Origin: Candidatus Iainarchaeum sp.
Lineage (GTDB): Archaea; Iainarchaeota; Iainarchaeia; Iainarchaeales; VGJJ01
DNA: 64,000 nucleotides
Direction: 5' to 3'
Assembly: GCA_030688545.1 (NCBI GenBank)
Contig: JAUYHT010000006.1
Coordinates: 267,035-331,034, forward strand
Shown here: piece after piece, positions 25,441 to 46,174 of the stretch
Layout of the letters: every line of letters begins with the position of its first letter
How positions within the stretch are numbered: position 1 is the stretch's first letter
Made by a program: the position numbers and the translations under genes
The notes under the pieces: model-generated
Told to the model about the DNA's origin: nothing
What the model saw: only the letters and a program-made list of their open reading frames with translations
The model's database searches: none

Positions 25441-26342
25441 ACCAGGCGCTTGACTGAATCCTGGTTTATTAACATGGTAGTCTCGAATTGGGCCACGATG
25501 GCCCCCTTCTTCTCCCGCAACACTGGATGAGGGGTGATGGCACCAAATTTCACCAGGTCGCGCAGCGCGGTCTTTCGGGAGAAATCCGACATATCCAAAT
25601 CGCGGGCGAGCCATCGTTCCGCGAAGGGCAATCCTTCATAGTGTTCGAGGCAGAAATCAACCATGCGGCGCGCATGGGGATTGCGAACGGGCACCTTTTC
25701 ATGCACTTCGAAAATTTCTATTTGGGGGGCCTCGAAAATTTCTCCATTTCCCCGGATGGAAGCGAAGGGTTCCATGGCGTAGGCATGTCCCTCTTCAATG
25801 GGGGATGGGTCGTCATTGGCAATATTTGGAATGGTAGGGGAACAGTGAGCCGTGTAGGCGTCGAGTCCGTGGCCGGACAAGTTGAGAATGGGATCCACCC
25901 CATATTTTTTCAGGGTGCCCCCGATGGCGGCTCCAAGAACTCGTACTTCCACTCCCATTTTGACTTCCTTGAACCCCGCTTCCAGAGCGGCTTGCGTGGC
26001 GGTGACCAAGTTGGCCACTTCCGCGTCGCCAGAGAAATCAAGTGTGAAGGCCGCGTCGACAATGTACCCGTCATGGTGCACCCCGATGTCCACTTTCAAC
26101 ACATCCCCTTTTTTCACCAGCGTCTCGTCCCCGGCGGATGGAGTATAGTGGGCGGCGATGTCATTCAGGGATAAGTTGATGGGAAAGGCGATGCCGCACC
26201 CGTTTTTTTTTGTCAAGGCCTCAATCTCTTCCGCGATATCCAATAGTTTCACTCCCGGCTGGATCATATCCCGCGCTTTCTGGCGGCAGAGCGCATGCAC
26301 TTTAGCGGCGGTCTCGTAATGGGCAACAATGAGGGGGTCCAT
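25437..26342 (-). CDS. map: methionine aminopeptidase, type 2
   Basis: VDIGVHHDGYIVDAAFT, GHG, EPF metal-ligand motifs. Confidence 0.9.
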   Translation of the reverse strand: MDPLIVAHYETAAKVHALCRQKARDMIQPGVKLLDIAEEIEALTKKNGCGIAFPINLSLNDIAAHYTPSAGDETLVKKGDVLKVDIGVHHDGYIVDAAFTLDFSGDAEVANLVTATQAALEAGFKEVKMGVEVRVLGAAIGGTLKKYGVDPILNLSGHGLDAYTAHCSPTIPNIANDDPSPIEEGHAYAMEPFASIRGNGEIFEAPQIEIFEVHEKVPVRNPHARRMVDFCLEHYEGLPFAERWLARDLDMSDFSRKTALRDLVKFGAITPHPVLREKKGAIVAQFETTMLINQDSVKRLV

Positions 26343-26479
26343 ACCTTTACTCGGAGGGTAATATTGTTAAACGATGGCCTTTGAACCAATGCTTTTCAGG
26401 GGTTCAGTGAACACCCCCTTCTTCCTTGGTTAAGGTCGGATCAAAAGACCCAGCCGCAAGCGGAAGTAGCAATAAAGAT

Positions 26480-27301
26480 CTAAATTGAAATGGGTTCCAG
26501 GAAGCGGGCGTGTGGGAAACTTAAGCGAGTGGATTCAATCTTTTTGATTTCATCAATATAGATTTTCCTTATGGCATCCTTTACTTTATCATTTAGCACC
26601 ACATTTCGAGCCTTTGCAATTTCACCTTTCTTAGCCAATGATATAACTGATTTCTTATTGCCACCATACTTTATGAATAGAACTTCAGGAAGACGATTAT
26701 TTCCAGATAAAAAATCGCCAAATGGTTCGTGATGTTTTTCGAAGTAATCTTGAATGTCGTCATTAATTTGTCGAATTATTCCTATAGAATGAGCAATTTT
26801 TTCTAATTTTTTACTCGGTTTTTTATTTGCTAACAATTGTCCCACATTAAATCCCGTAGAAACATGCCCACCCGTGAATAAACGAACAGCTAGAAAATAG
26901 TTTTCAAAACTACTTGACTTGTTTGAGGAGGAGATTAAAATCTCACCACGATATAAGTCAAATAAATAACCATGAATAGCTTGAAATAATTCAATCTTAA
27001 ATGAATCCTTTGTTTTTAATAAATTAGAAATCTTTGTCATTTTTCGAATGGATTCAAACCGCAGTTTTTCTGCTTTGATTATAGTAAATGGAATTCCTTC
27101 TTGAACATAAATACAAGCTTTTCCGTTACGCGTTTTTGAGGCATCAATAATATCATCAAGCATCATTACAGAATCATCAAGACCATTAGATATTTCTCTA
27201 AGCAATTTTTCATGGTTGGATGGAAACTTTTTTGCAGTTGCAAACTCATATCCTGCTTTCACATATACTGCAAAACTTTTTTCGAATTTTTGCAATGCCA
27301 T
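26480..27301 (-). CDS. polyprenyl (trans-isoprenyl) diphosphate synthase family
   Basis: first (MLDDIIDAS) and second (QINDDIQDY) DDxxD motifs; gene is strongly AT-rich. Confidence 0.75.
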   Translation of the reverse strand: MALQKFEKSFAVYVKAGYEFATAKKFPSNHEKLLREISNGLDDSVMMLDDIIDASKTRNGKACIYVQEGIPFTIIKAEKLRFESIRKMTKISNLLKTKDSFKIELFQAIHGYLFDLYRGEILISSSNKSSSFENYFLAVRLFTGGHVSTGFNVGQLLANKKPSKKLEKIAHSIGIIRQINDDIQDYFEKHHEPFGDFLSGNNRLPEVLFIKYGGNKKSVISLAKKGEIAKARNVVLNDKVKDAIRKIYIDEIKKIESTRLSFPHARFLEPISI

Positions 27302-27414
27302 GATAATCCTATAAAAGTACTAAATAAAAACCAGCAGAGATAAAATTATGTAGTCATAATACTTTCTCTGCTTAAATCGTTTTTGAACAAACTATTTTAG
27401 AAAAAAAGTTTCTT

Positions 27415-29829
27415 TTAGTTAAACGCCCCCAGCCCGGTCTGTTTTCCTTGATTGCGCAAATCATGGGGGTCGTATCCCAGTTCCACGAGAATACGTTCGA
27501 TGGCGGGTACAACTTGGTGGAGAATGTAGTATTCGGCGTCGTAGTCCCCTTCTTTCACGAATTCCTCGAGTTCGGCTTTCTCTGAAATGGTTTTTCCTTT
27601 GGTAGTTATGATGAACCCCAGCATGGCCCCCACTCGGATGTCTTTCCCCCGCTTCATGGCCTTGAGCGCGGCGGAGACATGGGGGGTTGTTGTAGCGTAG
27701 GATGAGGGACGGCGCTGCATCTGGGTGTGTACTACTAAATCCTTATTGGGAATTTTCCCTTCGCGGAGACGGGAAATAGTCAGTTGGACGGCTCTCAGCG
27801 CGGCCTCGGGATTCCCATTCACGAGGACTTCCTGGAGCACGGTCTTCTGCGTCTCCCGCGCAACCTTGGACCAGTCGCGCCGCACATACTCGAATCCAAC
27901 GATCGTGAGTTGGTTGTCATAGTCCGCGAGGGCGTATCGTTTCTTGGCCGCGTGCCCCTCTTTCCTGGTGACAAAAAGCCCGCGCTTGTAGAGGCCTTCG
28001 AATTCCAGTTCCATAATGCCGGGCAGAGTTTTGTTTATTTTCTTCACGAGCGCGTGCATATCCTTTTCGTTTTTATCTGGTGGCAACAACAAAAATGCCG
28101 AATCTGTATCTGTGTAAATGGCAGTATATCCTTCTTTTTCAACATCCACAAGTGTCTTCTGAATATAGTGCCGCGCCCACGCAGTAATAGCCCGGGCGGA
28201 TTCGCGGGAGTACCAGCGGAAGCGTGGAAATCCGAGCGTCCCAAAGAAGGAGTTGAGCAGTATCTTCAACGCCTGCTTGCGTGCTTTCAGATTGGGCTGG
28301 CGCGGATCGTCTTTGGAAAGGGTATCCATTTCTTTCTGCACGGCGATGCGCTGGCGGAGGATATCATCCATCACTGAGGCGACCAATCCTTTTTCTTTGG
28401 TGCAGAACCAGTGCCCCGTGGGGGCGCGGTTGGGGCCTTTCTGGCACTCCTTATGCGCACAATCCAGTGTCTCGGGGGAAATGTTGTGCGAGATCATAAT
28501 ACTTGGATACAGGGAGCGGAAGTCCAACACCGCCACGTGCGAATGCAAGCCGGCCGTGGGTTCCTTCACGTAACCCCCTTCGATGGGATTCTGGGTGCGG
28601 GCATTCACCTGTTCGTCCGTGGGGGGACTAGGGATGGGAATGTTTCGTGTTACACATTCGGCGAAAAGCACGGCCTCCACCAATTGGGAGGCGGTGGCGC
28701 GGCACGTATCCGAGACTGACAATCGGACGATTCTGGATATCTCGAGCAGGAGGGGAAGGAATTCCAGGGCGAGACGCTGGGTGAAAATAGTGTCATTGAG
28801 GTTGTAGAGGGCCAATTTTTCTAATCCTTTTTTGGTTTGCCAGATTTCGCGGATCTGAACATGGGTCAGCGTTTTCTCCCCTTCCCCGAAAACGGCCTGC
28901 ATCACACTCCCCAAATCCAATTTCACGGTTTTGAGGGCCTGAAAACGATTCAAGAGGCGGGCGAGTTGCAACACATCCACGTGGGGCATCCCTTTTACCC
29001 GGGCTTCGTGCCCGCTGCCACGTCCCACGAGTTGGGGTTCACCAAATCCAAGGTCCAGGGACACCCCATGTTTCTGGGCGCGCGCCAGGAGAAAAGGAAA
29101 ATCAAACCCATCACCATTGTAGGTGGCAATAATATCCACATTCGCGAGACGAAGGAATGTGATGAATTGTTCGAGAAGATGTTTTTCATCCCGAACCAAA
29201 GTGGTTAGGTCATCCACATGCTGGGGCATGAACACTTTGTTTCCTTCAGGAGTGGTAATGGCAATGGAAATGATTTCATCCGCGTCAGAATTGGGCGAAG
29301 TCCCTAACCCACATGTTTCGATGTCGAAAGAAGCAACTCGCCAAGACGCGGGGGGTGAATCGAGGGAAGAAATTGAATGGATATCTCCTGTTTGGTTTAG
29401 CGTCAATTCAATTTTCTGATTGGGAATGAGTTTTTTATCCAGGAGATAACGCCGGGTGTAGGGGATGTTATACTCATGCATCTCCTTCACATGAGGATAG
29501 CGGAGAATCAGCTCCCTCACCCCTAATAGGTCGGGAATGCGGTGGAAATCCAAGCGGATAAATACCTGGTTGGCTCGGGTGACTTTTTGGACGTGAGCAA
29601 GGCGGATACCTCCAGGGAACGTCTCATTTTCAAGGCTGGAAATCATTTCGGGAATGGGGAACCGGGAATCACATGTTATGTAGAAGTAAGGGGGGAATGT
29701 TCTATCCAGGAACAATTTCACCCCTCCCGGGGTGCGGACATATACCTCCACGACGCTCTTTCCCTGGTCTTCGTGCATCTGCACATCTAACAGCCACCCC
29801 TCCCCTGTTTCCTTGCTGCGCGAGGCCAT
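27415..29829 (-). CDS. polB: DNA polymerase family B
   Basis: exo FDIET; pol motifs SLYPSIMISHNISPET, K..NS.FG, IYTDTDS. Confidence 0.9.
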   Translation of the reverse strand: MASRSKETGEGWLLDVQMHEDQGKSVVEVYVRTPGGVKLFLDRTFPPYFYITCDSRFPIPEMISSLENETFPGGIRLAHVQKVTRANQVFIRLDFHRIPDLLGVRELILRYPHVKEMHEYNIPYTRRYLLDKKLIPNQKIELTLNQTGDIHSISSLDSPPASWRVASFDIETCGLGTSPNSDADEIISIAITTPEGNKVFMPQHVDDLTTLVRDEKHLLEQFITFLRLANVDIIATYNGDGFDFPFLLARAQKHGVSLDLGFGEPQLVGRGSGHEARVKGMPHVDVLQLARLLNRFQALKTVKLDLGSVMQAVFGEGEKTLTHVQIREIWQTKKGLEKLALYNLNDTIFTQRLALEFLPLLLEISRIVRLSVSDTCRATASQLVEAVLFAECVTRNIPIPSPPTDEQVNARTQNPIEGGYVKEPTAGLHSHVAVLDFRSLYPSIMISHNISPETLDCAHKECQKGPNRAPTGHWFCTKEKGLVASVMDDILRQRIAVQKEMDTLSKDDPRQPNLKARKQALKILLNSFFGTLGFPRFRWYSRESARAITAWARHYIQKTLVDVEKEGYTAIYTDTDSAFLLLPPDKNEKDMHALVKKINKTLPGIMELEFEGLYKRGLFVTRKEGHAAKKRYALADYDNQLTIVGFEYVRRDWSKVARETQKTVLQEVLVNGNPEAALRAVQLTISRLREGKIPNKDLVVHTQMQRRPSSYATTTPHVSAALKAMKRGKDIRVGAMLGFIITTKGKTISEKAELEEFVKEGDYDAEYYILHQVVPAIERILVELGYDPHDLRNQGKQTGLGAFN

Positions 29830-29864
29830 ACCTCTTTTTTAAGCCCCGACCGGTCTTTTAATCC

Positions 29865-30332
29865 ATGCCCGACCCCCTCCCAGCCGGTTACCCGGCGCCT
29901 CCCCGCCCCCAAGGAGGGACGGATTACCTCTACACCCTCAACCGGGACCTCAAAGCCCTCAACGCCTCCGTCCTGGTCATCACCCAGAAGATCAAGTACC
30001 TCGTCCGCAACGAGAAAATACTCGGAAGAAATCTCATCATCATCAACAAGCGGGTCAAGGAACTCTCCACCTCCCTCGCCCAGACGCAAGGGGAAGGGAT
30101 GTCCGATGAAACTAAACAACTCGTCTCTGACCTATCCCGCCAGGCGAGCGCCTTATCCTCCCAGCTCGTCCAACTGGAATCAAGGCTCGACACCCTCTCC
30201 CGCTCCGCCGCCAAGCAGGACGAGGTGAAAGAACTCAAATATATCATCGATGGGATGAACCCCTTGCATTACGTCACCCGCGAGCAAGTGGAAGAACTGA
30301 TTGATAAGCGGTTGGGCGAACGGAAAAAATAA
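29865..30332 (+). CDS. coiled-coil protein, unknown function
   Basis: heptad-rich helical sequence with Pro-rich N-terminus. Confidence 0.45.
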   Translation: MPDPLPAGYPAPPRPQGGTDYLYTLNRDLKALNASVLVITQKIKYLVRNEKILGRNLIIINKRVKELSTSLAQTQGEGMSDETKQLVSDLSRQASALSSQLVQLESRLDTLSRSAAKQDEVKELKYIIDGMNPLHYVTREQVEELIDKRLGERKK

Positions 30333-30335
30333 ATC

Positions 30336-30501
30336 CTTTTTCCTAAAAAGCGTTCGTTTTTTTGATCAAACTTCATCGTAAACACTATTTTCCGCCAACG
30401 CTTTTTCCAGCGGAAAAAGGGTTGTTACGATGCTCGCAAAACATAGTTTTGCTTGGTTTCCTAAAAAGTTTCTTTTGATGAAACTTTTTTTTAAAAAGTT
30501 C
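30336..30501. repeat. cluster of AT palindromes (CTTTTTCC-N-GGAAAAAG type) and TTTGATCAAA between convergent genes
   Basis: ctttttcctaaaaag (30336-50), tttgatcaaa (30361-70), ctttttccagcggaaaaag (30401-19), gaaactttttttttaaaaagttc (30477-501). Confidence 0.5.
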
Positions 30502-30502
30502 G

Positions 30503-32044
30503 TTATGAGAACAAGAAGTCTCCCACCACGCGCTGGGAGTAGGTGTCTCTCAGGGTGACGCGGTAGTTTTTGCGGCCCACCAAAGCCACTCCGGCCTGGC
30601 GTCCGCCGATGACGGAGATTTGGGCGTCGCAGAGGTTGCGGACATTCTGCGGGAGATCGATGCCGTGGGCTGAAGAGAGGATAAACCCCACGTCCTGGGT
30701 GTTGCTCTCGCTCAACAGCCGTTCCAGTTCCCGGTGCAAGGCGGGTTCCCGGCGGGGGTCGAATAGGGGCATGGCCTCTGGAATGACAATGAGGGATTTC
30801 ATTCTATCGGATACTCCTTTCCGGGTGTACCAGGAATAGATCCCCTTCATGATGGTGTACACCAGGAGGTTGCGCAGGCGCGGGGGGGTATGAGGCAGAC
30901 GCACAACTCCTATTCGTCCGATGGATTGGAACCAGCTCTTGGATATCTCCTCAATAGGATTGGTCCCGTCGAATAGTTTGGGGAATGTTTGGTCCAATAG
31001 GGTAAGGAGTCGTATGAGGCTGTTGATCTGGAAGGAGGAGAATGTGTCCGAGGGGGGGAGTTGTCTCAAAATGCGCACCCCTTCGTCAATGGAGGTCACG
31101 GAATGCTCGCGCAGAAATCGAGCGAGGTGCAATCCCAATTCATGATGCTCCAATCCCAGTATTTCCACCATGGCCTCAGGAGGAACAGTTGAGAGTTCGA
31201 TCTTCAAATTTTCGAAAGGCAGGAATTCCTTCAGGGGAAAACCAATGGGGTCCCCTTCAATCTTTTGCATGTGCAACGTGTCCGCGCTCGCGTTGGGATT
31301 GCGCATGACCGAGAATGTGTTGTTCCAGTCCATTATGACCACGGGGATGTTGGAGAATAAGGCCCCTTCCGCGATGACCTGAAGCACGTGTTCCCGGTGC
31401 TCTTTCCGCCCCCCTTCCACAAGGGTTTTCTTGAAGAAGAGAATGGGTTCCTTCACTAGCAATCCTGCTTGGGTCGTTCCCAATATGAATTCCCCGGGAA
31501 GCGCCCCGCTATGCGCTTGCGGCGTGCGAATAGTCTGATCCCCCTCGCGGGAATAGTGGGCACTCGTGGCGAGCATGGGAATGAGCATGGGCGCGCTGAA
31601 GAAGGCATTCCGCACCTTCTCATTGGTCTGGGCTAATGGGGTCATCTGGATGTCATAGGCCCGTGCCACTTCTTTCAGCAGGGAGTTCCCCACCTCTATT
31701 TTCTTGAGAAGTATATCCGTCTGCTCGAGCACGATGCCCTCCTCCCACGCCACCGACACGGGGTCGCTGCCCAATATGAGAAAGGTATGCGTCTCGTCCA
31801 CGCTGTGTTTAGTCCATACCAATAAGTCCCGTGGCAGGGTTTGAACAAACCCCCGGACATCTCCAGTGGCCTCGTACACCTGGTAGAATTCGCACGTGGC
31901 TTGGGTGAATGTTCCCCCTTCCGGGTGCAGGGTTTGGATGTAGATCCATTTTTCGGGGCTCGTGTACACCTCGAGTGACTGATCCTGGATATTCCCTTTC
32001 AGGAGCAGCGACCAGGGTCCTTGGGCGATCTTGAACAACGGCAT
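30503..32044 (-). CDS. large conserved hypothetical protein (513 aa), no recognisable catalytic motif
   Basis: long unambiguous ORF; no Walker A; one hhhhxPEA segment (LIVIPEAMPLF). Confidence 0.5.
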   Translation of the reverse strand: MPLFKIAQGPWSLLLKGNIQDQSLEVYTSPEKWIYIQTLHPEGGTFTQATCEFYQVYEATGDVRGFVQTLPRDLLVWTKHSVDETHTFLILGSDPVSVAWEEGIVLEQTDILLKKIEVGNSLLKEVARAYDIQMTPLAQTNEKVRNAFFSAPMLIPMLATSAHYSREGDQTIRTPQAHSGALPGEFILGTTQAGLLVKEPILFFKKTLVEGGRKEHREHVLQVIAEGALFSNIPVVIMDWNNTFSVMRNPNASADTLHMQKIEGDPIGFPLKEFLPFENLKIELSTVPPEAMVEILGLEHHELGLHLARFLREHSVTSIDEGVRILRQLPPSDTFSSFQINSLIRLLTLLDQTFPKLFDGTNPIEEISKSWFQSIGRIGVVRLPHTPPRLRNLLVYTIMKGIYSWYTRKGVSDRMKSLIVIPEAMPLFDPRREPALHRELERLLSESNTQDVGFILSSAHGIDLPQNVRNLCDAQISVIGGRQAGVALVGRKNYRVTLRDTYSQRVVGDFLFS

Positions 32045-32113
32045 GGGGATTCCAACGGAAGAGGTTTTTTATAGCAGGGTTGGTTCCTATTTAAAGCGCA
32101 CGCGAGGCTGGCC

Positions 32114-32719
32114 ATGGTCAATGACGAAATCATCCTCAACACCATTCGCAAGATGCAGGACGCGGGTCTCTCGGATAACATCATCCGTTCTACTCTTTCT
32201 GACCTGGGGTTGGGCAACGAGCAGGTCCAATCCTTCCTCTCCCGCGCGGGAATAAAAGACTCATCCCAAGGTCTTTCCTTTCCGGCCTCCCCCCCTCCTC
32301 CCTTATCTGAAAAACCCAATACGGCTTCCAGGGGAGAATCCAACCCTTCCTTGTCAGAAGCCGACCACGAGGCCATCGCTTCCCGCACGAGCGAAGTGTT
32401 GCAGCAGCAGATGGCCCATCGGGAACAGTCCATACAAAATGAGCATTCCCTGCGTGACAGCATCACCCATTTGGCACTGGAACAGCACGGCGAACAATTG
32501 AAGGACACCCACTCCGCGGTGGTCGAGCTCCATGACCGGCTGGACGGGATGAATATCGATACCCTTTCTTCCCGCCTCGCTGGATTAGGCACGCGCACGG
32601 ATGTCATCGCCAATGACGTATCCGAAATTAAATCCCGCATGGGGGCTTTGAATGCCCTGATGCAGAAAGTCCTTGAGACGGAACAGAAACTCTTGTTCGG
32701 GAGCAAGGACAAGAAATAG
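32114..32719 (+). CDS. coiled-coil protein with small N-terminal helical domain
   Basis: N-terminus IILNTIRKMQDAGLSDNIIRSTLSDLGL, Pro/Ser linker, then coiled coil; resembles 29865-30332 in style. Confidence 0.45.
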   Translation: MVNDEIILNTIRKMQDAGLSDNIIRSTLSDLGLGNEQVQSFLSRAGIKDSSQGLSFPASPPPPLSEKPNTASRGESNPSLSEADHEAIASRTSEVLQQQMAHREQSIQNEHSLRDSITHLALEQHGEQLKDTHSAVVELHDRLDGMNIDTLSSRLAGLGTRTDVIANDVSEIKSRMGALNALMQKVLETEQKLLFGSKDKK

Positions 32720-32810
32720 CCTTTAGTCATTTGCCCCCGATGTTCTTTTCGACAGAATATTTTTCTAAACCGTTTTCTTGTAAATTTTTTCTAGGTCGTT
32801 TTTGATCGCC

Positions 32811-32917
32811 CTTTTTTCTAAAAGGAGGGTTTTTGATCAAACTTTTTCCCAAAAAGTTTGATGAGGAAGCTTTTTTCTGAGTCGATTTTTTGATAAAACT
32901 TTTTCCTAAAAAGTTTT
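32811..32917. repeat. AT palindrome cluster (TCAAACTTTTT-ccc-AAAAAGTTTGA and relatives) between convergent genes
   Basis: perfect 11-bp arms at 32837-32861; second copy 32895-32917. Confidence 0.5.
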
Positions 32918-32927
32918 TAAAAAAGTT

Positions 32928-33332
32928 TCATTTGAAGAGCTTGTGTAGCCCGTCCCAGAATTGTTCCGCCATGGTGGCGAGGGCGTGCATGGGTTGGGGG
33001 ATGTTCCATTGGTAATTGTATGCGTCCTTATAGGATTTGGCTCCTTTGGGGAGGATGGTTTCTTGGGTCTTCTCCGAGAGGGCTTTTCCTATGTTTTCGA
33101 ATGTCCCTTTGGGATGGCTTCCTTTCGCCGCTTCCATGGCGTGGTATTCCTCCTCGTATATTTTTTTGGCCTTTTCAATCCCTTTTTTGGCCCCTCGGGT
33201 AATCGTCCGAGTGGAATAGAAAACCATGTACACGAGAAATAGCAGGCCGCCTGCGATTAGCCAGAATAGGTTTCCCGTCGCCGCGAGCGCCACGAGAATG
33301 ACTAATAGCAGAATCCATCCTCCCTCACTCAT
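32928..33332 (-). CDS. small membrane protein (2 TM + amphipathic tail)
   Basis: hydropathy. Confidence 0.4.
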   Translation of the reverse strand: MSEGGWILLLVILVALAATGNLFWLIAGGLLFLVYMVFYSTRTITRGAKKGIEKAKKIYEEEYHAMEAAKGSHPKGTFENIGKALSEKTQETILPKGAKSYKDAYNYQWNIPQPMHALATMAEQFWDGLHKLFK

Positions 33333-33697
33333 TAGTGGCCGCCCCCCATGCCTCCAAATCCACCCATTCCTCCTCCCATGCCGCCGCCCATACCCCCATC
33401 CATTCCCTGGAGCATCGCCAGCATGTCGGGGGACATCGCGGCCTGTTCCTCCGAAGGCTTCACTCCCACAAAATAGGCCAATCCCACGAGCGCCACGACG
33501 ACATAGAGTAATTCTCCTTTCAGCGCCCCCCCGAAGATGAAAAATACGACCCCTGTCACGAGCGTGAGCAATATTCCCGGAATTGAGCGTAGGCTGATGA
33601 GCAAAAATACGAGGATGGCGAGGCTCAGCCAGATCTGGCTGTATTGCATGGTGAAGGCCAGCAGGAACACCGCCACCGCGTACGTGAAGGAGTCCAT
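33332..33697 (-). CDS. small membrane protein with C-terminal Gly/Met repeat (GGMGGGMGGGMGGFGGMGGGH)
   Basis: 3-4 TM then (GGMG)n tail. Confidence 0.45.
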   Translation of the reverse strand: MDSFTYAVAVFLLAFTMQYSQIWLSLAILVFLLISLRSIPGILLTLVTGVVFFIFGGALKGELLYVVVALVGLAYFVGVKPSEEQAAMSPDMLAMLQGMDGGMGGGMGGGMGGFGGMGGGH

Positions 33698-33704
33698 GCG
33701 TCGT

Positions 33705-33947
33705 TCACTTCCCGAAGACGTTCACTTTGGTGAAAACGTCTTTTCCGAATGTAGCGAAAGCCCATAAAAAAACGAGCCCCCACACGAGCTCGGGAAACTG
33801 GTAAAACGTGAGGAACATGATTACAAGGGCCGTGACGAAAGCGAGCTTGGTGCTCCCCACATTTCCTTTGGCCCAGTTGTAGATCCAGATGAATAGGAAT
33901 ATGGTGATGGCCAATTGGACGTTTTCCGTGAGGGATTGGAGGAGCAT
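33705..33947 (-). CDS. small membrane protein (2-3 TM)
   Basis: hydropathy. Confidence 0.4.
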   Translation of the reverse strand: MLLQSLTENVQLAITIFLFIWIYNWAKGNVGSTKLAFVTALVIMFLTFYQFPELVWGLVFLWAFATFGKDVFTKVNVFGK

Positions 33948-34005
33948 GCGCTCCTATTTTGGACGAAATCCCCTTATTTAAGGGAATGGTCATTTTGGAG
34001 AAAAG

Positions 34006-34746
34006 TTATCCGGAGGCGGCCTCGTCGTAGCGGGAAAAACGTCCTCTCCCTCGTCCCCCATTCCCACCCATGCGGGGTCGGCGTTTGCGCGCACCATCGT
34101 CATCCCCTTCCCGCACCGGGTGTTCGAACTCTTCGGGCGTCCTGGTAAAGGATTCTTCATCCGCGATCTTTCCCGTTCCGATTAAATAGCCCCGGGCCAG
34201 GAGCCAATAGATGAGGGCCAGGGATTTGCGCCCTTTATTGTTCACGGGAAGAACCACATCGATGTTTCTGAGTTCATTGTTCGTTGATGCTAATGCCACT
34301 ACAGCTGCCCGGGCGAGGGAGGCTTCTTGGATGGCTTGCACATCGGACTCTGGTTCGGTGATGATGACCACTTTGGGTTGTAAAAATTCCTTCCCTTCGG
34401 GATTGGTAAATGTTCCGGGCACGAATCGTCCGGTGAGCGCGCGGCATCCGATGGTCGCGGCGAATTCTTCAACCGGTGTTTTCCCATACATCTTTCGGCT
34501 GACCACAATAATTTCATGCGGGGCATACCGGGAGAGGAATTGTCCCACGTGCTTGACGCGTTGGTCAATCATCTGGATATCCAGCACTTTTAGCCCGTCC
34601 CGACGCTGTTTGTAGATGTACTTTCCCATATCCCCTGATTTGAATCGGGCGCCGATGTGGGCACCGGAAGTAAGGTATTTCTCCATGAGGGGATTAGTCC
34701 CGACGGGGGTGTTCTGGATATCATCTTGTTTGTCAGTCATCGGCAA
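34006..34746 (-). CDS. rps2: 30S ribosomal protein S2 (uS2)
   Basis: archaeal uS2 core; Gly/Arg-rich C-terminal tail. Confidence 0.85.
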   Translation of the reverse strand: MPMTDKQDDIQNTPVGTNPLMEKYLTSGAHIGARFKSGDMGKYIYKQRRDGLKVLDIQMIDQRVKHVGQFLSRYAPHEIIVVSRKMYGKTPVEEFAATIGCRALTGRFVPGTFTNPEGKEFLQPKVVIITEPESDVQAIQEASLARAAVVALASTNNELRNIDVVLPVNNKGRKSLALIYWLLARGYLIGTGKIADEESFTRTPEEFEHPVREGDDDGARKRRPRMGGNGGRGRGRFSRYDEAASG

Positions 34747-34941
34747 TCACACGTTATATCGCATCACGTCATCGATTAATTCGACATGACTGCGGAGCAT
34801 TCGTCGGCAACAATACCTTGTTATCCCCAATTCTTGGAAAATATCTTCCCATTTCTCTCCCTTCTTGACACGGGATTGAATTTCGTCATGGTATCCCGCG
34901 ACGGGTTTTCCGCATGAGAAGCATCGTACTGGCATGATCAT
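34747..34941 (-). CDS. rpoN: DNA-directed RNA polymerase subunit N (Rpo10)
   Basis: MIMPVRCFSCGK...YCCRRM zinc motif, 64 aa. Confidence 0.9.
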   Translation of the reverse strand: MIMPVRCFSCGKPVAGYHDEIQSRVKKGEKWEDIFQELGITRYCCRRMLRSHVELIDDVMRYNV

Positions 34942-34956
34942 ATGGTTCCCTCCGAA

Positions 34957-35373
34957 TCAGCGTTTGGAATGCTGTTTCTTCCTCCGTGCTTTGGGCCCTA
35001 AAGGTTTCTTTGGTTCGGTCCGCCGGGGATCGTCCACGAGGAGCATCCGGTCGTATTGGAGGTATTTCTTTCGCAGGTCATCCCCTAGATGTTCCGCTAA
35101 GGCTTTGGCCAGCGTGGCCCTAACCGCCACCGCTTGGGACATGGGCCCTGATCCCTGCACCCTGACATCAAAATCGAATGCATGGGCCGCTTCCCCCGCC
35201 AGGAGCAATGGTTCCCGGATAAAGGTTTGTACCTCAGGGGGTTCCACGAGATTCAGGTGGCGGGCATTGATCCTCACCACCCCCCTCCCGGGAGAGATGA
35301 TGGTTTTGGCGATAGCCTCTTTCTTCTTGGCCTTGAACATCATTTGCTTTTTCCGTTTCGCCATGTCATTCAC
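34957..35373 (-). CDS. rps9: 30S ribosomal protein S9 (uS9)
   Basis: GRGVVRINARHLNLVEPPEVQTF core; K/R-rich C-terminus. Confidence 0.85.
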   Translation of the reverse strand: MNDMAKRKKQMMFKAKKKEAIAKTIISPGRGVVRINARHLNLVEPPEVQTFIREPLLLAGEAAHAFDFDVRVQGSGPMSQAVAVRATLAKALAEHLGDDLRKKYLQYDRMLLVDDPRRTEPKKPLGPKARRKKQHSKR

Positions 35374-35864
35374 CTGTCTTTCAATCCGGTGTACCCGATG
35401 GATTCGGCTAATTGCAACACGCTAAAAACCCCTTTGGCTCTCTGATTGCGGGCTTTTTCCAGTGGTTCAAATGTTTTTCCTTCATATTGGGTGGGTGTCC
35501 CGATGTAAACCCGCAAACGCCGCAGAGCCTCGCGTCCCCGCATCCGTTTGGAGGGCAACATCCCCTCGATGATCTCTTTGAGGATGCGGTCGGGCATTTT
35601 AGAGAAGCGGGGTCCGAATTCAGGATTTCCTTTGGGACGTAAATCAAGTCGTTTTTGCCAGCGGGTCGAGAGCACGATGGGATTTCCAGTGAAAACGGCC
35701 TTCTCCGCATTCACAATAATCACACGCTTCCCCTTCAGCAAGTCTTGCGCCACGTGAGAAGCCAGACGCCCGACCACGAGATTAGTCGCATCGACATGGT
35801 GTGTCGCATCCCCCCTACTGGGTGGGGAGGAAGCTGGTTTTTTAGTTATAGGGGGGTTGGTCAT
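35370..35864 (-). CDS. rpl13: 50S ribosomal protein L13 (uL13)
   Basis: VDATNLVVGRLASHVA N-terminal signature. Confidence 0.85.
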   Translation of the reverse strand: MTNPPITKKPASSPPSRGDATHHVDATNLVVGRLASHVAQDLLKGKRVIIVNAEKAVFTGNPIVLSTRWQKRLDLRPKGNPEFGPRFSKMPDRILKEIIEGMLPSKRMRGREALRRLRVYIGTPTQYEGKTFEPLEKARNQRAKGVFSVLQLAESIGYTGLKDR

Positions 35865-35865
35865 T

Positions 35866-36234
35866 CTATTTCACCACCATCATCCGAGAGGAAGGAATAT
35901 TGTTTTCAATCAATTGGGCGAGCGTGTAAATCGTTCCTTGCTTCCCCGTGATTTTATCTCTCGCCGCCTGCGAGAACCCCAGGGCGGCCACTTCCATCTT
36001 CTCAGAAACATCCCCTTTCCCCATGACTTTTCCGGGGACGACGAATACCTTGTCCTTGAATCGGATGGCCATCCCATTGAGATGATCCACATTCACTTCC
36101 GCCCGGTTGCGGGTGGAAGTTTGGATGAGCGTGGCGAGCGTGCGGAACACATTCTGCTTGGTCTTTTTTCCCTGCTTGTCCAACTGCACCACGAGTTGTC
36201 GCGTCATTGGATTGGTTGGTCCGCTTCGTTTCAT
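35866..36234 (-). CDS. rpl18e: 50S ribosomal protein L18e (eL18)
   Basis: TNPMTRQLVVQLDKQGKK...RNRAEVNV; start trimmed to MKRSG (AGGTGA SD). Confidence 0.8.
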   Translation of the reverse strand: MKRSGPTNPMTRQLVVQLDKQGKKTKQNVFRTLATLIQTSTRNRAEVNVDHLNGMAIRFKDKVFVVPGKVMGKGDVSEKMEVAALGFSQAARDKITGKQGTIYTLAQLIENNIPSSRMMVVK

Positions 36235-36299
36235 TTTTTTCACCTGATAATATTCTTTTCTTTTTTTGGCCACCGGGAAATTAGAAAAAGGTTGGCGAA

Positions 36300-36365
36300 A
36301 ACCTTTTAGCCGGGAGGTTTCCGAGAAACCTCCCCATGTCCAAACGCCCAAATGGAATTTGGGCA
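36300..36365. terminator. two GC hairpins immediately 3' of tRNA-Leu
   Basis: gggaggttt-ccgag-aaacctccc (36312-36335) and gcccaaat-gga-atttgggc (36346-36364). Confidence 0.3.
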
Positions 36366-36449
36366 TGCACGGGGGAGGATTCGAACCTCCGAAGGCACTA
36401 AGCCACCAGATCTTAAGTCTGGCCCCTTTGACCGCTCGGGAACCCGTGC
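36366..36449 (-). tRNA. tRNA-Leu (anticodon UAA), long variable arm
   Basis: acceptor gcacggg/cccgtgc, anticodon arm ccaga-ctTAAga-tctgg, variable stem ggc/gcc, T arm ggagg-ttcgaat-cctcc. Confidence 0.8.
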
Positions 36450-36451
36450 CA

Positions 36452-36545
36452 CAAACTTTTTGGGAAAAAGTTTGATCAAAAACCTTTCCTCTTGAAAAAA
36501 GTTTGATCAAAAAACCCTTTCCTTTTGGAAAAAGGCTTAATCAAA
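36452..36545. repeat. three tandem AT palindrome/TTTGATCAAA elements between tRNA-Leu and rpoD
   Basis: CAAACTTTTT-ggg-AAAAAGTTTG-atcaaaaa, then two degenerate copies. Confidence 0.5.
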
Positions 36546-36693
36546 CAAACTTTTCATTGTGGAATAATCCCGAAGAATTGGCTATCCCCCCGTTTTCTTT
36601 TTGGGAAATCTGGGGGGTCAAAACCGCTTCCATCTAGGAAAATGGCTCCGAATCGGTTAAAAGGCGCTAGGGGCAGTGGGTGCCTCTGGCTGG

Positions 36694-37467
36694 TCACAAT
36701 CCATCTTTCACCCGGTCGGCGAAGTCTTTTGCTTTGCTTTCCATAATCGAAATGGCCTCTTCTACGAGCTGCCTGGTTGAGAGGGCCCCGGTTCCTTCCA
36801 TCGTCATGACGAACCCGCTTTCATCTGGGTCGACTTGGATGATTCCCGCGCCACCCACTTCCTCGCAATGCCCGCAGAGGGTGCAGTCGCTCGGTTCCGT
36901 GATGCTGATCTTCTTTCCTTTCATTTCAATGATGTTCACGGGACAGCTCTTCACCAGCTTTTCTCCCATTTCGGGGGAAATATTCTCATTAATCGTGAAT
37001 AGGGGTAACATGCGGTAGCCCACGATGGCGGGTTGGTATTTGACATGATCCTTCCCCACCCCCACGACGCATTCCCCTTCCAGCCGAATGTGTTGATCGG
37101 CTTTGAGCTTAGCCAGGGGAATCTTTTTGTCCAGGACTTGGATTCCCTCATCCAGGATCTTGATGTCCCCGCTGTACACCGTGCAGGGTCCTTCTGCTTC
37201 AAGGGTCATTTTCACTTTGTCTCCCAGTTTGTAGGATTTGGGATCCATGGAAATAGGAACCAGTCCCAATCGGTGTCCTATGAATTCGTCGAATAACACC
37301 CCATTGTTTTCATAGATACTCAGTTCCTCAATGGCGAGCGTAGGTACTTCAGACATGATGATGCGGCGCAAGGCGTTCATCGTCGCCAGATTTGTCCCTT
37401 TGACCAGGAGTTGGGTTCGGCTCCCTTTCTCCGACAAAACTTTTATCACGTTTCTCGCCATGTTCAT
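36694..37467 (-). CDS. rpoD: DNA-directed RNA polymerase subunit D (Rpo3)
   Basis: alpha-like dimerisation domains; CPVNI...CTLCGHCEE ferredoxin-like Cys cluster. Confidence 0.85.
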   Translation of the reverse strand: MNMARNVIKVLSEKGSRTQLLVKGTNLATMNALRRIIMSEVPTLAIEELSIYENNGVLFDEFIGHRLGLVPISMDPKSYKLGDKVKMTLEAEGPCTVYSGDIKILDEGIQVLDKKIPLAKLKADQHIRLEGECVVGVGKDHVKYQPAIVGYRMLPLFTINENISPEMGEKLVKSCPVNIIEMKGKKISITEPSDCTLCGHCEEVGGAGIIQVDPDESGFVMTMEGTGALSTRQLVEEAISIMESKAKDFADRVKDGL

Positions 37468-37473
37468 TCCCTC

Positions 37474-37863
37474 TTAGACCTTTTTGCTCCGGTGTTTTTT
37501 CTTCTTGCGTGTCCCATCATGGGGAACAGGGGTTACATTCTCGATGGAAATAATCCGCATCCCATTCCGTGTCAAGCTCCGGATGGCGGCTTCGGCTCCC
37601 TGCCCGGGATTGCGGGGTCGGATGCCCCCTTTCGCGCGCACTCTCACGTGGACTTGGTCGATGCCTTTTTCCCGTGCTTTCTGCGCGATGGTTTCGGCGA
37701 TCTTCATGGCGGCATAAGGGCTTCCTTCTTTGTGTTGGGTCTTGATAACCACTCCCCCTGAGCACTTGGCAAGGGTTTCCGCTCCCGTCACATCGGTGAG
37801 GAGCATAATCGTATTGTTGTGCGTCGCGAACACGTGGATCAGTCCTATTTTGTCGTTGGCCAT
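37474..37863 (-). CDS. rps11: 30S ribosomal protein S11 (uS11)
   Basis: GLIHVFATHNNTIMLLTD...GGVVIKT. Confidence 0.9.
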   Translation of the reverse strand: MANDKIGLIHVFATHNNTIMLLTDVTGAETLAKCSGGVVIKTQHKEGSPYAAMKIAETIAQKAREKGIDQVHVRVRAKGGIRPRNPGQGAEAAIRSLTRNGMRIISIENVTPVPHDGTRKKKKHRSKKV

Positions 37864-37869
37864 GGGGGT

Positions 37870-38511: not shown

Positions 38512-38517
38512 AAAATA

Positions 38518-39003
38518 TCACTTCTTCTCTCCCTTCGTGGCGGGAGCCTCTTTCTTCTTATCCACACCCACCGAGGCGCCTCGTTTTCGTCCACTCGTCT
38601 TGGTGCGTTGCCCGCGTACGGTTAGTCCGAGGGAGTGTCGCACGCCTTTGTAGGAGTGCAATTTCTTCATCGTCTGCAAATCATTCCGGATGGCGAAATC
38701 CAGGTCGTTCATGACGAGATGGCCATCTTTTCCGGCAATGGCTTGGCGGCGATTAACAGCCCACAGGGGCACCTGATGGAGCAGTGGGTTCAGCACGATC
38801 TGTTCGAGGTGGGCATCCATGTCTTCTGGGAGTTCCCCGATCTTAGTCAAGTGGGATACGTGGTGCACCCGTTCGAATTCATAAGCGAGGATGCGTGCCA
38901 TGCGCGTGCCGATCCCCTTGATCTCGGCGAGGGCGTGATAAATAGGTTTGTTCCCATTCAAGTCGCGTCCGGCGATACGCACGATATATCGGTTCTCAGC
39001 CAT
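38518..39003 (-). CDS. rps13: 30S ribosomal protein S13 (uS13)
   Basis: IVRIAGRDLNGNKPIYHALAEIKGIG. Confidence 0.9.
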   Translation of the reverse strand: MAENRYIVRIAGRDLNGNKPIYHALAEIKGIGTRMARILAYEFERVHHVSHLTKIGELPEDMDAHLEQIVLNPLLHQVPLWAVNRRQAIAGKDGHLVMNDLDFAIRNDLQTMKKLHSYKGVRHSLGLTVRGQRTKTSGRKRGASVGVDKKKEAPATKGEKK

Positions 39004-39020
39004 AACTATTCATTTTCCCC

Positions 39021-46173: not shown

Positions 46174-46174
46174 C

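What the first reader, a model, noticed from the sequence alone, without database searches (positions are those of the whole stretch)
29865..33947. Convergent cassette of coiled-coil proteins, a 513-aa unknown protein and three tiny membrane proteins, bracketed by palindromic elements
Between polB and rps2 lies a block with no recognisable housekeeping role. It holds a 155-aa coiled-coil protein (+), a 513-aa protein (-) with no P-loop or other catalytic signature, and a second coiled-coil protein (+). The second one has a small N-terminal three-helix domain and a coiled coil that shares motifs with the first (LESRLDTLS / LHDRLD..LSSRLAGL). Three consecutive small membrane proteins follow (134, 121 and 80 aa). 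One ends in a (GGMG)n Gly/Met-rich tail. Both convergent junctions (30336-30501 and 32811-32917) are packed with the palindrome family. The layout and lack of annotation make this a candidate undescribed module, perhaps envelope, stress or defence related. The only catalytic hint is an hhhhxPEA segment (LIVIPEAMPLF) that loosely recalls a degenerate Walker B.
Basis: partly seen in the sequence, partly recalled or inferred. Interest (0 to 1): 0.55.

Follow-up and report, generated by a model that had tools for sequence, protein, structure and literature searches.

The report
Dead HerA-like ATPase gene module
Next to the replicative DNA polymerase of a tiny DPANN archaeon lies a six-gene block kept in the same order in almost every related genome examined; its central protein is a relative of the HerA DNA-pumping ATPase that has lost its ATP-binding loop, so it probably serves as a passive ring scaffold linked to small membrane proteins, though its job is untested.

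Summary
The six ORFs and the palindromes are real and lie at the stated coordinates. The "513-aa unknown" is a diverged HerA-type protein. Foldseek's top 50 PDB hits are all HerA (4D2I, E=4e-12), and a family profile hits Sulfolobus HerA at E=9e-7. Its Walker A loop is replaced across the family: GATGTGKT becomes GGRKEHRE, with an Arg at the Lys position in 130 of 155 members. Walker B is hhhhPEA. I read it as a pseudo-ATPase.

The family has 334 clusters at 50% identity. Every named member is "hypothetical" or "DUF87 domain-containing", from Diapherotrites/Iainarchaeota.

Synteny is very strong. The order TM80>TM121>TM134> <CC201 HerA-like> <CC155 PolB> holds in all 17 related genomes, with the left end cut off or undetected in two. 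Searching from CC155 in metagenomes, PolB is adjacent in 56/63 loci, the HerA-like gene in 53/59 and CC201 in 33/36.

There is no defence, phage or type IV secretion signal. The two coiled-coil proteins are not detectably homologous to each other.

The palindromes are a genome-specific, terminator-like 30-mer that also occurs elsewhere in the window and is absent from orthologous loci, so they are not part of the module.

Best reading: a conserved, membrane-tethered, nucleotide-independent HerA-derived ring complex linked to replication. The process it serves is inferred, not shown.

The parts
27415..29829 (-). Family-B DNA polymerase (PolB).
   Evidence: ORF carries the YTDTDS motif. Orthologs carry Pfam DNA_pol_B_exo1 and DNA_pol_B. 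It is adjacent and divergent to CC155 in 56 of 63 metagenome loci with enough flank.
29830..29864 (.). 35-bp divergent promoter region between PolB and CC155. It holds two TATA-like boxes (TTTTTTAAG and, on the other strand, TTAAAAGA), each about 25 nt from a start codon. Leaderless transcription is inferred.
   Evidence: Sequence. The median gap between the PolB and CC155 ORFs is about 40 nt across the loci. The promoter function is inferred from established archaeal promoter geometry.
29865..30332 (+). CC155: a 155-aa helical-hairpin/coiled-coil protein with two conserved motifs, QKIKYLVRNEKILGRNL and ELKY(I/V)ID..NPL..T..Q.
   Evidence: The AF2 model has helices 19-74 and 81-130. The family has at least 557 clusters, all named hypothetical. 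Invariant residues are listed. No Pfam or PDB relative was found beyond generic coiled coils.
30333..30502 (.). Convergent junction between CC155 and the HerA-like gene, with A/T-rich palindromes (30336-30350, 30396-30424, 30463-30489, 30481-30501). Terminator-like.
   Evidence: The hairpins are weak, -1 to -8 kcal/mol.
30503..32044 (-). HerA-like pseudo-ATPase, 513 aa. It has an N-terminal beta-barrel (about residues 12-99), a long helix (102-129), a disordered linker (153-182) and a RecA-like core (185-500) with a helical insert (289-353). The Walker A site is degenerate (G211-G-R-K-E-H-R217-E) and Walker B is LIVIP422E423A.
   Evidence: AF2 pLDDT 82. Foldseek's top 50 PDB hits are all HerA, best 4d2i_A at E=4e-12. 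The family profile hits 4d2i at E=8.7e-7. DUF87 matches 16 of 21 homologs at E<=0.1.
32045..32113 (.). 69-bp divergent promoter region between the HerA-like gene and CC201. TATA-like boxes are TTTTTTATAG (serving the - strand gene) and TATTTAAA (serving CC201), each about 20-30 nt from a start codon.
   Evidence: Sequence. The function is inferred.
32114..32719 (+). CC201, 201 aa. It has a conserved N-terminal small helical domain (residues 1-45, motif TI.KM...G.....I..TL.D.G), a Pro/Ser-rich linker, a coiled coil, and a conserved C-terminal helix ALQ.LMQKILE.NQ.L.
   Evidence: Orthologs occupy the same position and orientation in 33 of 36 loci. Shorter versions of 143-148 aa occur in distant loci L024 and L025. 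No family match was found.
32720..32927 (.). Convergent junction between CC201 and TM134. It holds four copies or partial copies of the 30-nt element TTTTTGATCAAACTTTTTCCYAAAAAGTTT (32746, 32799, 32830, 32887). Terminator-like.
   Evidence: Hairpins are -9 to -11 kcal/mol with z-scores of -1.8 to -2.6.
32928..33332 (-). TM134: an N-terminal hairpin of two hydrophobic helices followed by a basic tail of about 90 aa, probably cytoplasmic, with motifs G.YP..F and LGKLF.K.
   Evidence: 16 K+R in the tail. It evolves fast: the HMM detects it in only 7 of 27 metagenome loci but in 15 of the 17 genome loci.
33332..33697 (-). TM121: a protein with about four hydrophobic helices and a Gly/Met-rich C-terminal tail, (GGMG)n.
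   Evidence: The Gly-rich tail (with M, Y or F) is present in all orthologs. The gene is found within 5 kb in 20 of 27 loci.
33705..33947 (-). TM80: a small protein with three hydrophobic helices and the motif W.Y.WAKG..GS.KLA. It has its own TATA-like box (TTAAATAA) about 30 nt upstream and a GGAG just before the ATG.
   Evidence: The gene is found within 5 kb in 20 of 27 loci. Paralogous copies occur in distant loci.

Best explanation
This is a vertically inherited six-gene module of Iainarchaeota/Diapherotrites (DPANN) archaea.

Shown. The 513-aa protein descends from a HerA-type (FtsK-HerA superfamily) ring ATPase. It keeps the HerA fold, but its Walker A loop has been rewritten across the whole family: no GK[S/T], and Arg at the Lys position. 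Its Walker B aspartate is replaced by proline.

Inferred. The protein can no longer bind and hydrolyse Mg-NTP in the canonical way, so it acts as a nucleotide-independent ring or scaffold, a pseudo-ATPase. Two non-homologous coiled-coil proteins, CC155 and CC201, each transcribed divergently or convergently around it, act as adaptors or stalks. Three small integral membrane proteins, TM80, TM121 with its flexible Gly/Met tail and TM134 with its basic cytoplasmic tail, form the membrane anchor. CC155 shares a back-to-back promoter of about 35-40 bp with the replicative PolB, and the PolB-CC155-HerA-like trio is the most persistent part of the synteny. The complex is therefore most likely expressed with replication and handles DNA or the chromosome at the membrane, by tethering, segregation or gating, and does not pump DNA itself.

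The palindromes are ordinary, genome-specific, oligo-T-bearing terminator-like elements at gene 3' ends.

The confidence of 0.4 refers to this functional reading. The descriptive core, a conserved module built around a HerA-derived protein without canonical catalytic motifs, I hold at about 0.9.
For: HerA ancestry: Foldseek's top 50 PDB hits are all HerA. The family profile hits SsoHerA 4d2i at E=8.7e-7, with the alignment running through Walker A and Walker B. DUF87 matches 16 of 21 homologs.

Loss of catalytic motifs: hmmalign against a canonical HerA-like protein pairs GATGTGKT with GGRKEHRE and VLFIDEAH with LIVIPEAM. Across 155 full-length members, the glycine before the Walker A lysine is never G, the Walker A Ser/Thr position is T in only 8, and the Lys position is R in 130. 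No canonical P-loop occurs at that site in any member.

Strong constraint elsewhere, so this is a functional protein and not a decaying gene: E226 155/155, G189 155/155, R345 154/155, R499 154/155, R495 148/155. The family has 334 clusters at 50% identity, nearly all 470-530 aa.

Linkage: gene order and orientation are identical in all 17 GTDB loci (L019 is cut off before the TM genes, and TM121/TM134 are not detected in L020) and in L001-L003. They persist at about 20% identity in L025 and L024. From the CC155 side, PolB is adjacent in 56/63 loci, the HerA-like gene in 53/59, CC201 in 33/36 and TM121/TM80 in 20/27.

Membrane parts: hydrophobic segments and charge distribution.

Not mobile and not defence: GC content matches the flanks, there are no PADLOC or PHROG hits to the core proteins, and no viral contigs were found.

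Separate promoters: TATA-like boxes lie about 25 nt from each start codon.
Against: No physical interaction, expression or phenotype data exist. The complex, its ring form and its link to DNA are inferred from gene order and ancestry only. Conserved order next to PolB could reflect frozen synteny in small genomes and not shared function. In L023 the TM genes and CC201 are not adjacent. In 4-6 loci a CC155-like gene occurs without the HerA-like gene or PolB. An Arg at the Walker A Lys position, together with three invariant arginines, could still bind a nucleotide or another anion, so 'nucleotide-independent' is not proven. The five small proteins have no detectable relatives of known function.
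Confidence: 0.4

Rival explanations
1. Frozen synteny. The six genes are unrelated hypothetical genes that happen to sit between PolB and the ribosomal-protein operon in a lineage with little genome rearrangement. The HerA-like protein works alone or with unlinked partners.
For: The flanking housekeeping genes (S2, RpoN, S9, L13, MetAP) are also syntenic in the same loci. Unrelated genes (methyltransferase, HAD hydrolase, purF-like) are inserted between components in some genomes. L023 has lost adjacency of the TM genes and CC201.
Against: Order and orientation persist to about 20% identity of the core protein, while the surrounding genes change: S2/purF are absent or replaced in L002, L024 and L025. 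Insertions occur between components without dispersing them. The divergent and convergent pairing with very short spacers is kept.
Confidence: 0.2
2. A conjugation/Ced-like or other trans-envelope conduit. The small membrane proteins form a channel or pilus-like structure and the HerA-like ring is its cytoplasmic docking platform. Such a conduit could take up or exchange DNA or other macromolecules with host cells, powered by another ATPase or by the partner cell.
For: FtsK-HerA superfamily proteins combined with small 2-4-TM proteins are the hallmark of type IV secretion and the archaeal Ced/Ted DNA-import systems (my own knowledge of that literature). Large surface proteins or class-III-signal proteins lie next to the module in L002, L023 and L025. 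DPANN archaea commonly depend on hosts.
Against: No Pfam or PDB sequence similarity links the TM proteins to VirB2, CedA1 or TedC pilins, or to VirB3 or VirB6. The module has no polytopic VirB6/CedA-like protein. The structural hits are to HerA proper, with its N-terminal barrel, and not to VirB4. The ATPase site is dead. The adjacent surface proteins are not conserved between loci.
Confidence: 0.15
3. An envelope or membrane-protein quality-control or stress module. The Gly/Met-rich tail of TM121 acts like the flexible GGM tails of chaperonins to hold unfolded segments, and the coiled-coil proteins and the ring form a membrane-associated holdase or remodelling scaffold.
For: The (GGMG)n tail is conserved in composition in all orthologs and resembles the GroEL/thermosome C-terminal GGM repeats (my own knowledge). 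CC155 gives weak sub-threshold hits to PspB and other envelope-stress coiled coils.
Against: All such hits are far below family thresholds and typical of coiled coils. Nothing links HerA-type folds to chaperone function. The tight PolB linkage is unexplained by this reading.
Confidence: 0.08
4. The HerA-like protein is still an NTPase or a nucleotide/anion sensor using a non-canonical site formed by Arg217 at the Walker A Lys position plus invariant R345, R495 and R499. On this reading the module contains a working motor or a ligand-gated switch.
For: The loop length is unchanged. A basic residue is kept at the Lys position in 134 of 155 members. E423 (the catalytic Glu position) is E in 58 and D in 14 of 155. 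Several arginines are invariant.
Against: The glycine before the Walker A lysine and the Mg-coordinating Ser/Thr are both lost, and the Walker B Asp is Pro in 92 of 155. AF2 models the loop as partly helical (helix starts at residue 214). The catalytic Glu position is not conserved across the family.
Confidence: 0.1
5. An anti-phage defence island or an integrated mobile element, as in the HerA-Sir2/Nezha, HerA-DUF4297 or DndH/TdpAB-type systems.
For: The structural neighbours include HerA subunits of several defence complexes.
Against: The core proteins have no PADLOC hits. No effector (Sir2, nuclease) is present. GC content is the same as the flanks. The locus is at a fixed chromosomal position in every related genome. 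No viral contigs were found. The ATPase is dead.
Confidence: 0.02

Closest known systems
Archaeal HerA (for example Sulfolobus solfataricus HerA, PDB 4D2I; HerA-NurA end-resection helicase)
   Same: It is the best structural match (E=4e-12) and the best profile-to-sequence match (E=8.7e-7). The length is similar (about 500 aa), and the layout is the same: N-terminal barrel, RecA-like core and helical insert.
   Different: There is no GxxxxGK[ST]. The Walker B Asp is replaced by Pro. No NurA, Mre11 or Rad50 gene is nearby. The neighbours are coiled-coil and small membrane proteins and PolB. Pfam DUF87 is not reached by the window protein itself.
Bacterial HerA-like NTPases (YjgR / DUF853, Pfam HerA_C; for example P0182 from Taibaiella)
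   Same: The sequences are alignable through the core. The segment after the P-loop is nearly identical (LQVIAE, then VPV..MD), and the Walker B strand aligns. PDB YjgR hits at E=2e-4.
   Different: P0182 has intact GATGTGKT and VLFIDEAH motifs, and the window family does not.
HerA subunits of defence complexes (Sir2-HerA/Nezha, DUF4297-HerA, TdpAB, DndH/DptH C-domain)
   Same: Fold-level similarity, Foldseek E=1e-8 to 1e-10.
   Different: Those are active ATPases paired with an effector and are patchily distributed. Here there is no effector, no PADLOC hit and core-genome synteny.
Degenerate FtsK/HerA-type domains used as non-catalytic docking modules (for example the D2/D3 domains of the type VII secretion ATPase EccC; archaellum FlaH as a RecA-type ATP-binder without hydrolysis). 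This comparison rests on my own knowledge.
   Same: They give a precedent for ring-ATPase folds retained as scaffolds or receptors at a membrane machine. Weak profile hits to EccC (E=0.03-0.04) cover the pre-Walker region.
   Different: Those domains still bind ATP and sit next to an active ATPase domain or partner. No active paralog is encoded in the 64-kb window.
Archaeal Ced/Ted DNA-import and bacterial type IV secretion systems
   Same: The general parts list matches: an FtsK-HerA superfamily protein plus several very small membrane proteins.
   Different: No sequence similarity links the TM proteins to pilins or VirB3/VirB6. There is no polytopic channel protein, the ATPase is dead, and the locus is housekeeping and not UV-inducible or plasmid-borne.

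Membership tests
HerA clade of the FtsK-HerA superfamily | RecA-like P-loop NTPase core fold with HerA-type helical insert and N-terminal (HAS-type) beta-barrel | tested here: met
   AF2 model, pLDDT 82. Foldseek's top 50 PDB hits are all HerA at probability 1.00. The family profile hits 4d2i at E=8.7e-7. That the N-terminal barrel is specifically a HAS barrel is inferred from the full-length alignments and was not checked separately.
HerA clade of the FtsK-HerA superfamily | Walker A motif GxxxxGK[ST] | tested here: not met
   The aligned site reads G-G-R-K-E-H-R-E. Across 155 members, the glycine before the lysine is never G, the Lys position is R in 130, and the Ser/Thr position is T in 8. 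The same holds in 40 further metagenome ORFs.
HerA clade of the FtsK-HerA superfamily | Walker B motif hhhhDE | tested here: not met
   LIVIPEA aligns to VLFIDEAH. The Asp position is P in 92 of 155 and D in 9. The Glu position is E in 58 of 155.
HerA clade of the FtsK-HerA superfamily | Hexameric ring with a central channel and a trans-acting arginine finger | not testable with these tools
   Only monomer prediction was available. R345, R495 and R499 are invariant, but their spatial role could not be mapped.
HerA-NurA DNA end-resection system | Adjacent NurA nuclease, usually with Mre11 and Rad50 | tested here: not met
   No NurA, Mre11 or Rad50 Pfam family appears among the genes called around the orthologs. 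The window neighbours are CC155, CC201, the TM proteins and PolB.
Pfam PF01935 (DUF87, HerA central domain) | Score above the Pfam gathering threshold | tested here: inconclusive
   The window protein has no hit at E<=1. 16 of 21 homologs match at E<=0.1, best 3.4e-6. Some database entries carry a precomputed PF01935 or PF05872 assignment.
Type IV secretion / archaeal Ced-Ted DNA transfer systems | Active VirB4/CedB-type ATPase | tested here: not met
   The catalytic motifs are lost, and the best structural neighbours are HerA, not VirB4.
Type IV secretion / archaeal Ced-Ted DNA transfer systems | VirB2/TrbC/CedA1/TedC-type pilin and a polytopic VirB6/CedA-type channel protein | tested here: not met
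   The three TM families have no Pfam or NCBIfam hits and no PDB sequence hits. The module has no protein with five or more TM segments. These are sequence-level tests only, and fold-level similarity was not tested.
Anti-phage defence systems with HerA (Sir2-HerA, DUF4297-HerA and others) | An effector partner, a match to defence-system models, and patchy or island-like distribution | tested here: not met
   PADLOC gives nothing for 5 of the 6 proteins, and only a coiled-coil-type LmuB hit at E=0.003 for CC155. The locus is fixed across 17 genomes. GC content equals the flanks.
Intrinsic-terminator-like / genome-wide palindromic intergenic repeats (the 'palindrome family') | Recurrent intergenic hairpin with oligo-T tracts placed 3' of genes irrespective of gene function | tested here: met
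   The window holds 5 full 30-mers, all intergenic and 30-210 nt 3' of a stop codon. T5 tracts are present on both strands. The hairpins are -8 to -11 kcal/mol. The element is absent from orthologous junctions in relatives. Termination activity itself was not tested.

The most novel reading that the evidence does not exclude
The module encodes a previously undescribed, DPANN-specific membrane machine. In this reading a HerA-derived ring has lost ATP hydrolysis, and its former nucleotide pocket, now lined by family-invariant arginines (R217 at the Walker A Lys position, plus R345, R495 and R499) and E226, binds DNA or another anionic ligand. The ring is held on a platform of small membrane proteins, one carrying a Gly/Met-rich flexible tail, by two coiled-coil stalks. 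It would couple the replicating chromosome to the membrane, acting as a passive segregation or tethering device or as a gate. That would be a new answer to how these minimal archaea organise or partition their DNA.
Probability: 0.2. Interest if true: 0.8.

Novelty: new variant of a known kind. Interest (0 to 1): 0.55.

Why it matters
DPANN archaea have very small genomes, so a six-gene block with no assigned function that is retained in fixed order next to the replicative polymerase across an entire phylum is likely to serve a core process. The central protein is a clear case of a ring translocase turned pseudo-enzyme. It forms a large family (334 clusters at 50% identity), is under strong constraint, is invisible to Pfam and NCBIfam, and is named only "hypothetical" or "DUF87 domain-containing" in the databases. 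If the predicted complex is real, it gives a concrete, testable candidate for chromosome-membrane coupling or envelope organisation in organisms where such machinery is unknown. It would also give a natural example of how P-loop rings are repurposed after losing catalysis. If it is only frozen synteny, the finding is still a useful annotation: a new inactivated HerA subfamily and five new small-protein families.

Tried and rejected
1. Single-sequence searches with the 513-aa protein against Pfam, NCBIfam and PDB found nothing. Homology appeared only through the family alignment and the structure prediction.

2. Defence or mobile-element origin is rejected: PADLOC, PHROGs and the viral-contig scan were negative.

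3. Homology between the two coiled-coil proteins is rejected: hhalign probability 20%.

4. Paralogy among the three TM families was not detected: hhalign probabilities 0.7-22%.

5. PDB profile searches for all five small proteins gave only coiled-coil noise or nothing. Foldseek with the CC155 model gave no hit.

6. An active HerA paralog nearby was sought and none was found in the 64-kb window.

7. Rosetta-stone fusions were sought in longer family members. Only low-complexity Pro/Ala/Gln/Lys tails were found.

8. The second homolog search, using the diverse alignment A2, returned only the close relatives already known, so it was in effect wasted.

10. Literature searches found no description of this family or module. 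The 'putative secretion system' in Makarova et al. 2015 (PMC5898192) is an unrelated MoxR/vWA system.

11. The palindromes as a module boundary are rejected.

Full report
OBSERVATION. The window is from a DPANN archaeon of the Diapherotrites/Iainarchaeota lineage. The CC155 protein is 100% identical to 'hypothetical protein Q8P05_04475 [Candidatus Diapherotrites archaeon]'. Part of the 513-aa protein is 100% identical to a partial 'MAG archaeon' entry. They are flanked by PolB (27415-29829, -) and ribosomal protein S2 (34006-34746, -). GC content (0.51-0.53) does not differ from the surroundings. Each ORF has clear orthologs in related genomes, so all are real genes.

THE 513-aa PROTEIN IS A P-LOOP-LESS HerA DERIVATIVE. 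On its own it matches no Pfam or NCBIfam family and no PDB sequence. A search of 5.8 billion proteins gave 32 relatives, all unnamed or 'hypothetical'/'DUF87'. Scanned individually, 16 of 21 of them touch Pfam DUF87 (the HerA central domain), best E=3.4e-6. An AlphaFold2 model built on the family alignment (pLDDT 82) has an N-terminal beta-barrel, a long helix, a disordered linker and a RecA-like core with a helical insert. Foldseek's first 50 PDB hits are all HerA proteins: SsoHerA 4d2i at E=4e-12, then HerA-NurA, Sir2-HerA, DUF4297-HerA, TdpAB and DndH-C. The viral library gives HerA-like, FtsK and DnaB folds. A profile of 46 diverse members hits SsoHerA by sequence at E=8.7e-7, aligned through both Walker regions.

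Aligning the window protein with a canonical bacterial HerA-like protein (P0182) on the family HMM pairs ...GLIAGATGTGKTKTLQVIAE... with ...TLVEGGRKEHREHVLQVIAE..., and VLFIDEAH with LIVIPEAM. The loop length is unchanged, but GxxxxGK[ST] is gone. I aligned 155 full-length members drawn from the 334 family clusters at 50% identity. In that alignment the glycine before the Walker A lysine is never Gly, the Mg-binding Ser/Thr position is Thr in only 8, and the Lys position is Arg in 130. The Walker B Asp position is Pro in 92, and the catalytic Glu position is Glu in only 58. By contrast G189 and E226 are invariant (155/155), R345 and R499 are 154/155, R495 is 148/155, and W11 is 146/146 where present. 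This is therefore an old, strongly constrained pseudo-ATPase family and not a decaying gene.

LINKAGE. Gene calls around three homologs show the same layout: small TM genes > <CC201-like, HerA-like> <CC155-like, PolB>. One of these homologs is only 36% identical to the window protein. A scan of 185,579 species genomes gave 17 loci, mostly labelled Iainarchaeum or 'uncultured archaeon'. tblastn with the window proteins finds every detected component in identical order and orientation in all of them, down to 32% identity of the core protein. The left end is cut off in L019, and TM121 and TM134 are not detected in L020. Unrelated genes (methyltransferase, HAD hydrolase, purF-like) are sometimes inserted between components without dispersing them. 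In members only about 20% identical (L024, L025), the pattern is still present: a string of small membrane proteins, a shorter CC201-like protein with the same N-terminal and C-terminal motifs, the HerA-like gene, a CC155-like gene, then PolB and MetAP. In L023 only the HerA-like gene, CC155 and PolB remain together.

As an independent test I searched metagenomes from the CC155 side and scored the 80 loci returned with local HMMs. PolB is divergently adjacent in 56 of 63 loci with enough flank. The HerA-like gene is convergently adjacent in 53 of 59, CC201 is present in 33 of 36, and TM121 and TM80 in 20 of 27. TM134 evolves fast and is detected in only 7 of 27. Four to six loci carry a CC155-like gene in another context. 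In L101 it sits next to an archaeosortase-like membrane protein, rpS8e and Hef. No relative occurs on viral contigs.

THE OTHER FIVE PROTEINS. CC155 is modelled as two long helices (19-74 and 81-130) plus a short C-terminal helix. Its invariant motifs are QK..(Y)..RNEKI.G.N and E.KY..D..NP. It belongs to a family of at least 557 clusters, all 'hypothetical' or given obviously spurious coiled-coil-driven names. CC201 has a conserved N-terminal domain of about 45 aa, a low-complexity linker, a coiled coil and a conserved C-terminal helix. Neither protein has a significant Pfam, NCBIfam, PDB or Foldseek relative, and they are not homologous to each other (hhalign 20%).

TM80 has three hydrophobic helices. 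TM121 has about four, plus a Gly/Met-rich tail that is Gly-rich in every ortholog. TM134 is a two-helix hairpin with a basic 90-aa tail carrying 16 K+R, so it is probably cytoplasmic by the positive-inside rule. None of the three resembles pilins, VirB3/VirB6, ATP-synthase c subunits or anything else at the sequence level, and they are not detectably paralogous.

THE PALINDROMES. The junction repeats are real. They belong to a 30-nt element, TTTTTGATCAAACTTTTTCCYAAAAAGTTT, with five full copies in the window. The other three (14455, 36453, 57544) lie in intergenic DNA just 3' of unrelated genes. The core pattern is almost absent from 25 related loci, including the orthologous junctions. The elements form modest A/U hairpins (-8 to -11 kcal/mol, z-scores -1.2 to -2.6) and carry T5 tracts on both strands. 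Given that oligo-T tracts terminate archaeal transcription, they are most simply bidirectional terminator-like elements specific to this genome. They are concentrated here because this stretch has two convergent junctions, and they are not part of the module. Each of CC155, PolB, the HerA-like gene, CC201 and TM80 has a TATA-like box about 25-30 nt before its start codon. This suggests four short transcription units and a back-to-back PolB/CC155 promoter within 35 bp, which is inference.

HOW IT MOST LIKELY WORKS. Two things are shown: a HerA-fold protein without canonical NTP-binding or hydrolysis motifs, and persistent linkage to two coiled-coil proteins, three small membrane proteins and PolB. 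The rest is inferred. I propose that the HerA-like protein forms a ring or scaffold that no longer burns ATP. The coiled-coil proteins would connect it to a small membrane platform, with the TM134 tail and the TM121 Gly/Met tail facing the cytoplasm. The assembly would be expressed with the replicative polymerase and would tether, organise or gate DNA at the membrane. I put this at about 0.4.

The rivals are as follows. Frozen synteny of unrelated genes: 0.2. A Ced/T4SS-like conduit with a passive docking ring: 0.15, weakened by the lack of any pilin or channel homolog and by the HerA-not-VirB4 affinity. A non-canonical nucleotide or anion-binding switch using the invariant arginines: 0.1. A membrane quality-control module suggested by the chaperonin-like GGM tail: 0.08. 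Defence or mobile element: about 0.02.

COMPARISON AND NOVELTY. By ancestry the protein sits in the HerA clade, but it fails the Walker A, Walker B and NurA-partner tests. I therefore file it as a new inactivated HerA-like subfamily, not as a HerA helicase. Non-catalytic ring-ATPase domains used as docking modules have precedent (EccC D2/D3, FlaH; my own knowledge), but those still bind ATP. Full-text searches found no paper describing this family or module. Makarova et al. [quoted passage not shown] It might correspond to CC155 or CC201, but I could not test this.

Verdict: a real, conserved, unannotated module whose core is a new variant of a known fold, with function unknown but now concretely testable. 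Interest is 0.55.

Noticed in passing
window 14455-14484, 36453-36482 (-), 57544-57573 (-): Three more copies of the 30-nt palindromic element TTTTTGATCAAACTTTTTCCYAAAAAGTTT lie in intergenic DNA 3' of unrelated genes. This looks like a genome-wide terminator-like repeat that is not shared with related genomes.
   Followed up: partly
window 31999-32730 (-): A 243-aa ORF runs antisense across the whole of CC201. CC201 is the conserved frame in all relatives, so the antisense ORF is almost certainly spurious.
   Followed up: partly
window 26001-28000, also 6001-8000 and 16001-18000: There are local GC dips (0.42-0.44 against about 0.52). The first covers a 273-aa ORF (26480-27301, -) with a polyprenyl-synthase-like DDIID motif, between MetAP and PolB. 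This ORF is not present at that position in relatives, which carry different genes there, so it may be a recent acquisition.
   Followed up: no
L002 1-6380: In a relative 36% identical to the window protein, the TM gene string is longer. It has two extra small membrane proteins, one of which (124 aa) ends in a Gly-rich tail (GGGSGGGEQSP...), and is preceded by a giant (at least 2,691-aa) surface protein. In L023 and L025, large Ig-like, laminin-G or class-III-signal proteins also lie next to the module.
   Followed up: partly
L101 4224-4622 (also L072, L099, L104): A CC155-like protein (132 aa, same RNEKILGRN and KYIID.INPLE motifs) occurs without the HerA-like gene or PolB in an AT-rich DPANN genome. 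There it lies beside an archaeosortase-like membrane protein, ribosomal protein S8e and Hef helicase/nuclease genes. The CC155 family is therefore broader than the module.
   Followed up: partly
P0121, P0144, P0186 (distant HerA-like family members; L025 8001-9692): Some family members carry long C-terminal Pro/Ala/Gln/Lys-rich low-complexity extensions of 60-200 aa after the conserved R..LRP end. No informative domain fusions were seen.
   Followed up: yes
window 33332-33697 (TM121 C-terminus): The tail GGMGGGMGGGMGGFGGMGGGH resembles the flexible GGM repeats at the C-termini of GroEL and thermosome subunits (my own knowledge). Distant orthologs replace Met with Tyr or Phe but stay Gly-rich.
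   Followed up: partly
window 34000-54000: A strongly negative AT skew (-0.18 to -0.35) extends across the long minus-strand ribosomal-protein/RNA-polymerase gene array downstream of the module.
   Followed up: no
PMC6393860, Table 1: [quoted passage not shown] It may be the same family as CC155 or CC201.
   Followed up: no
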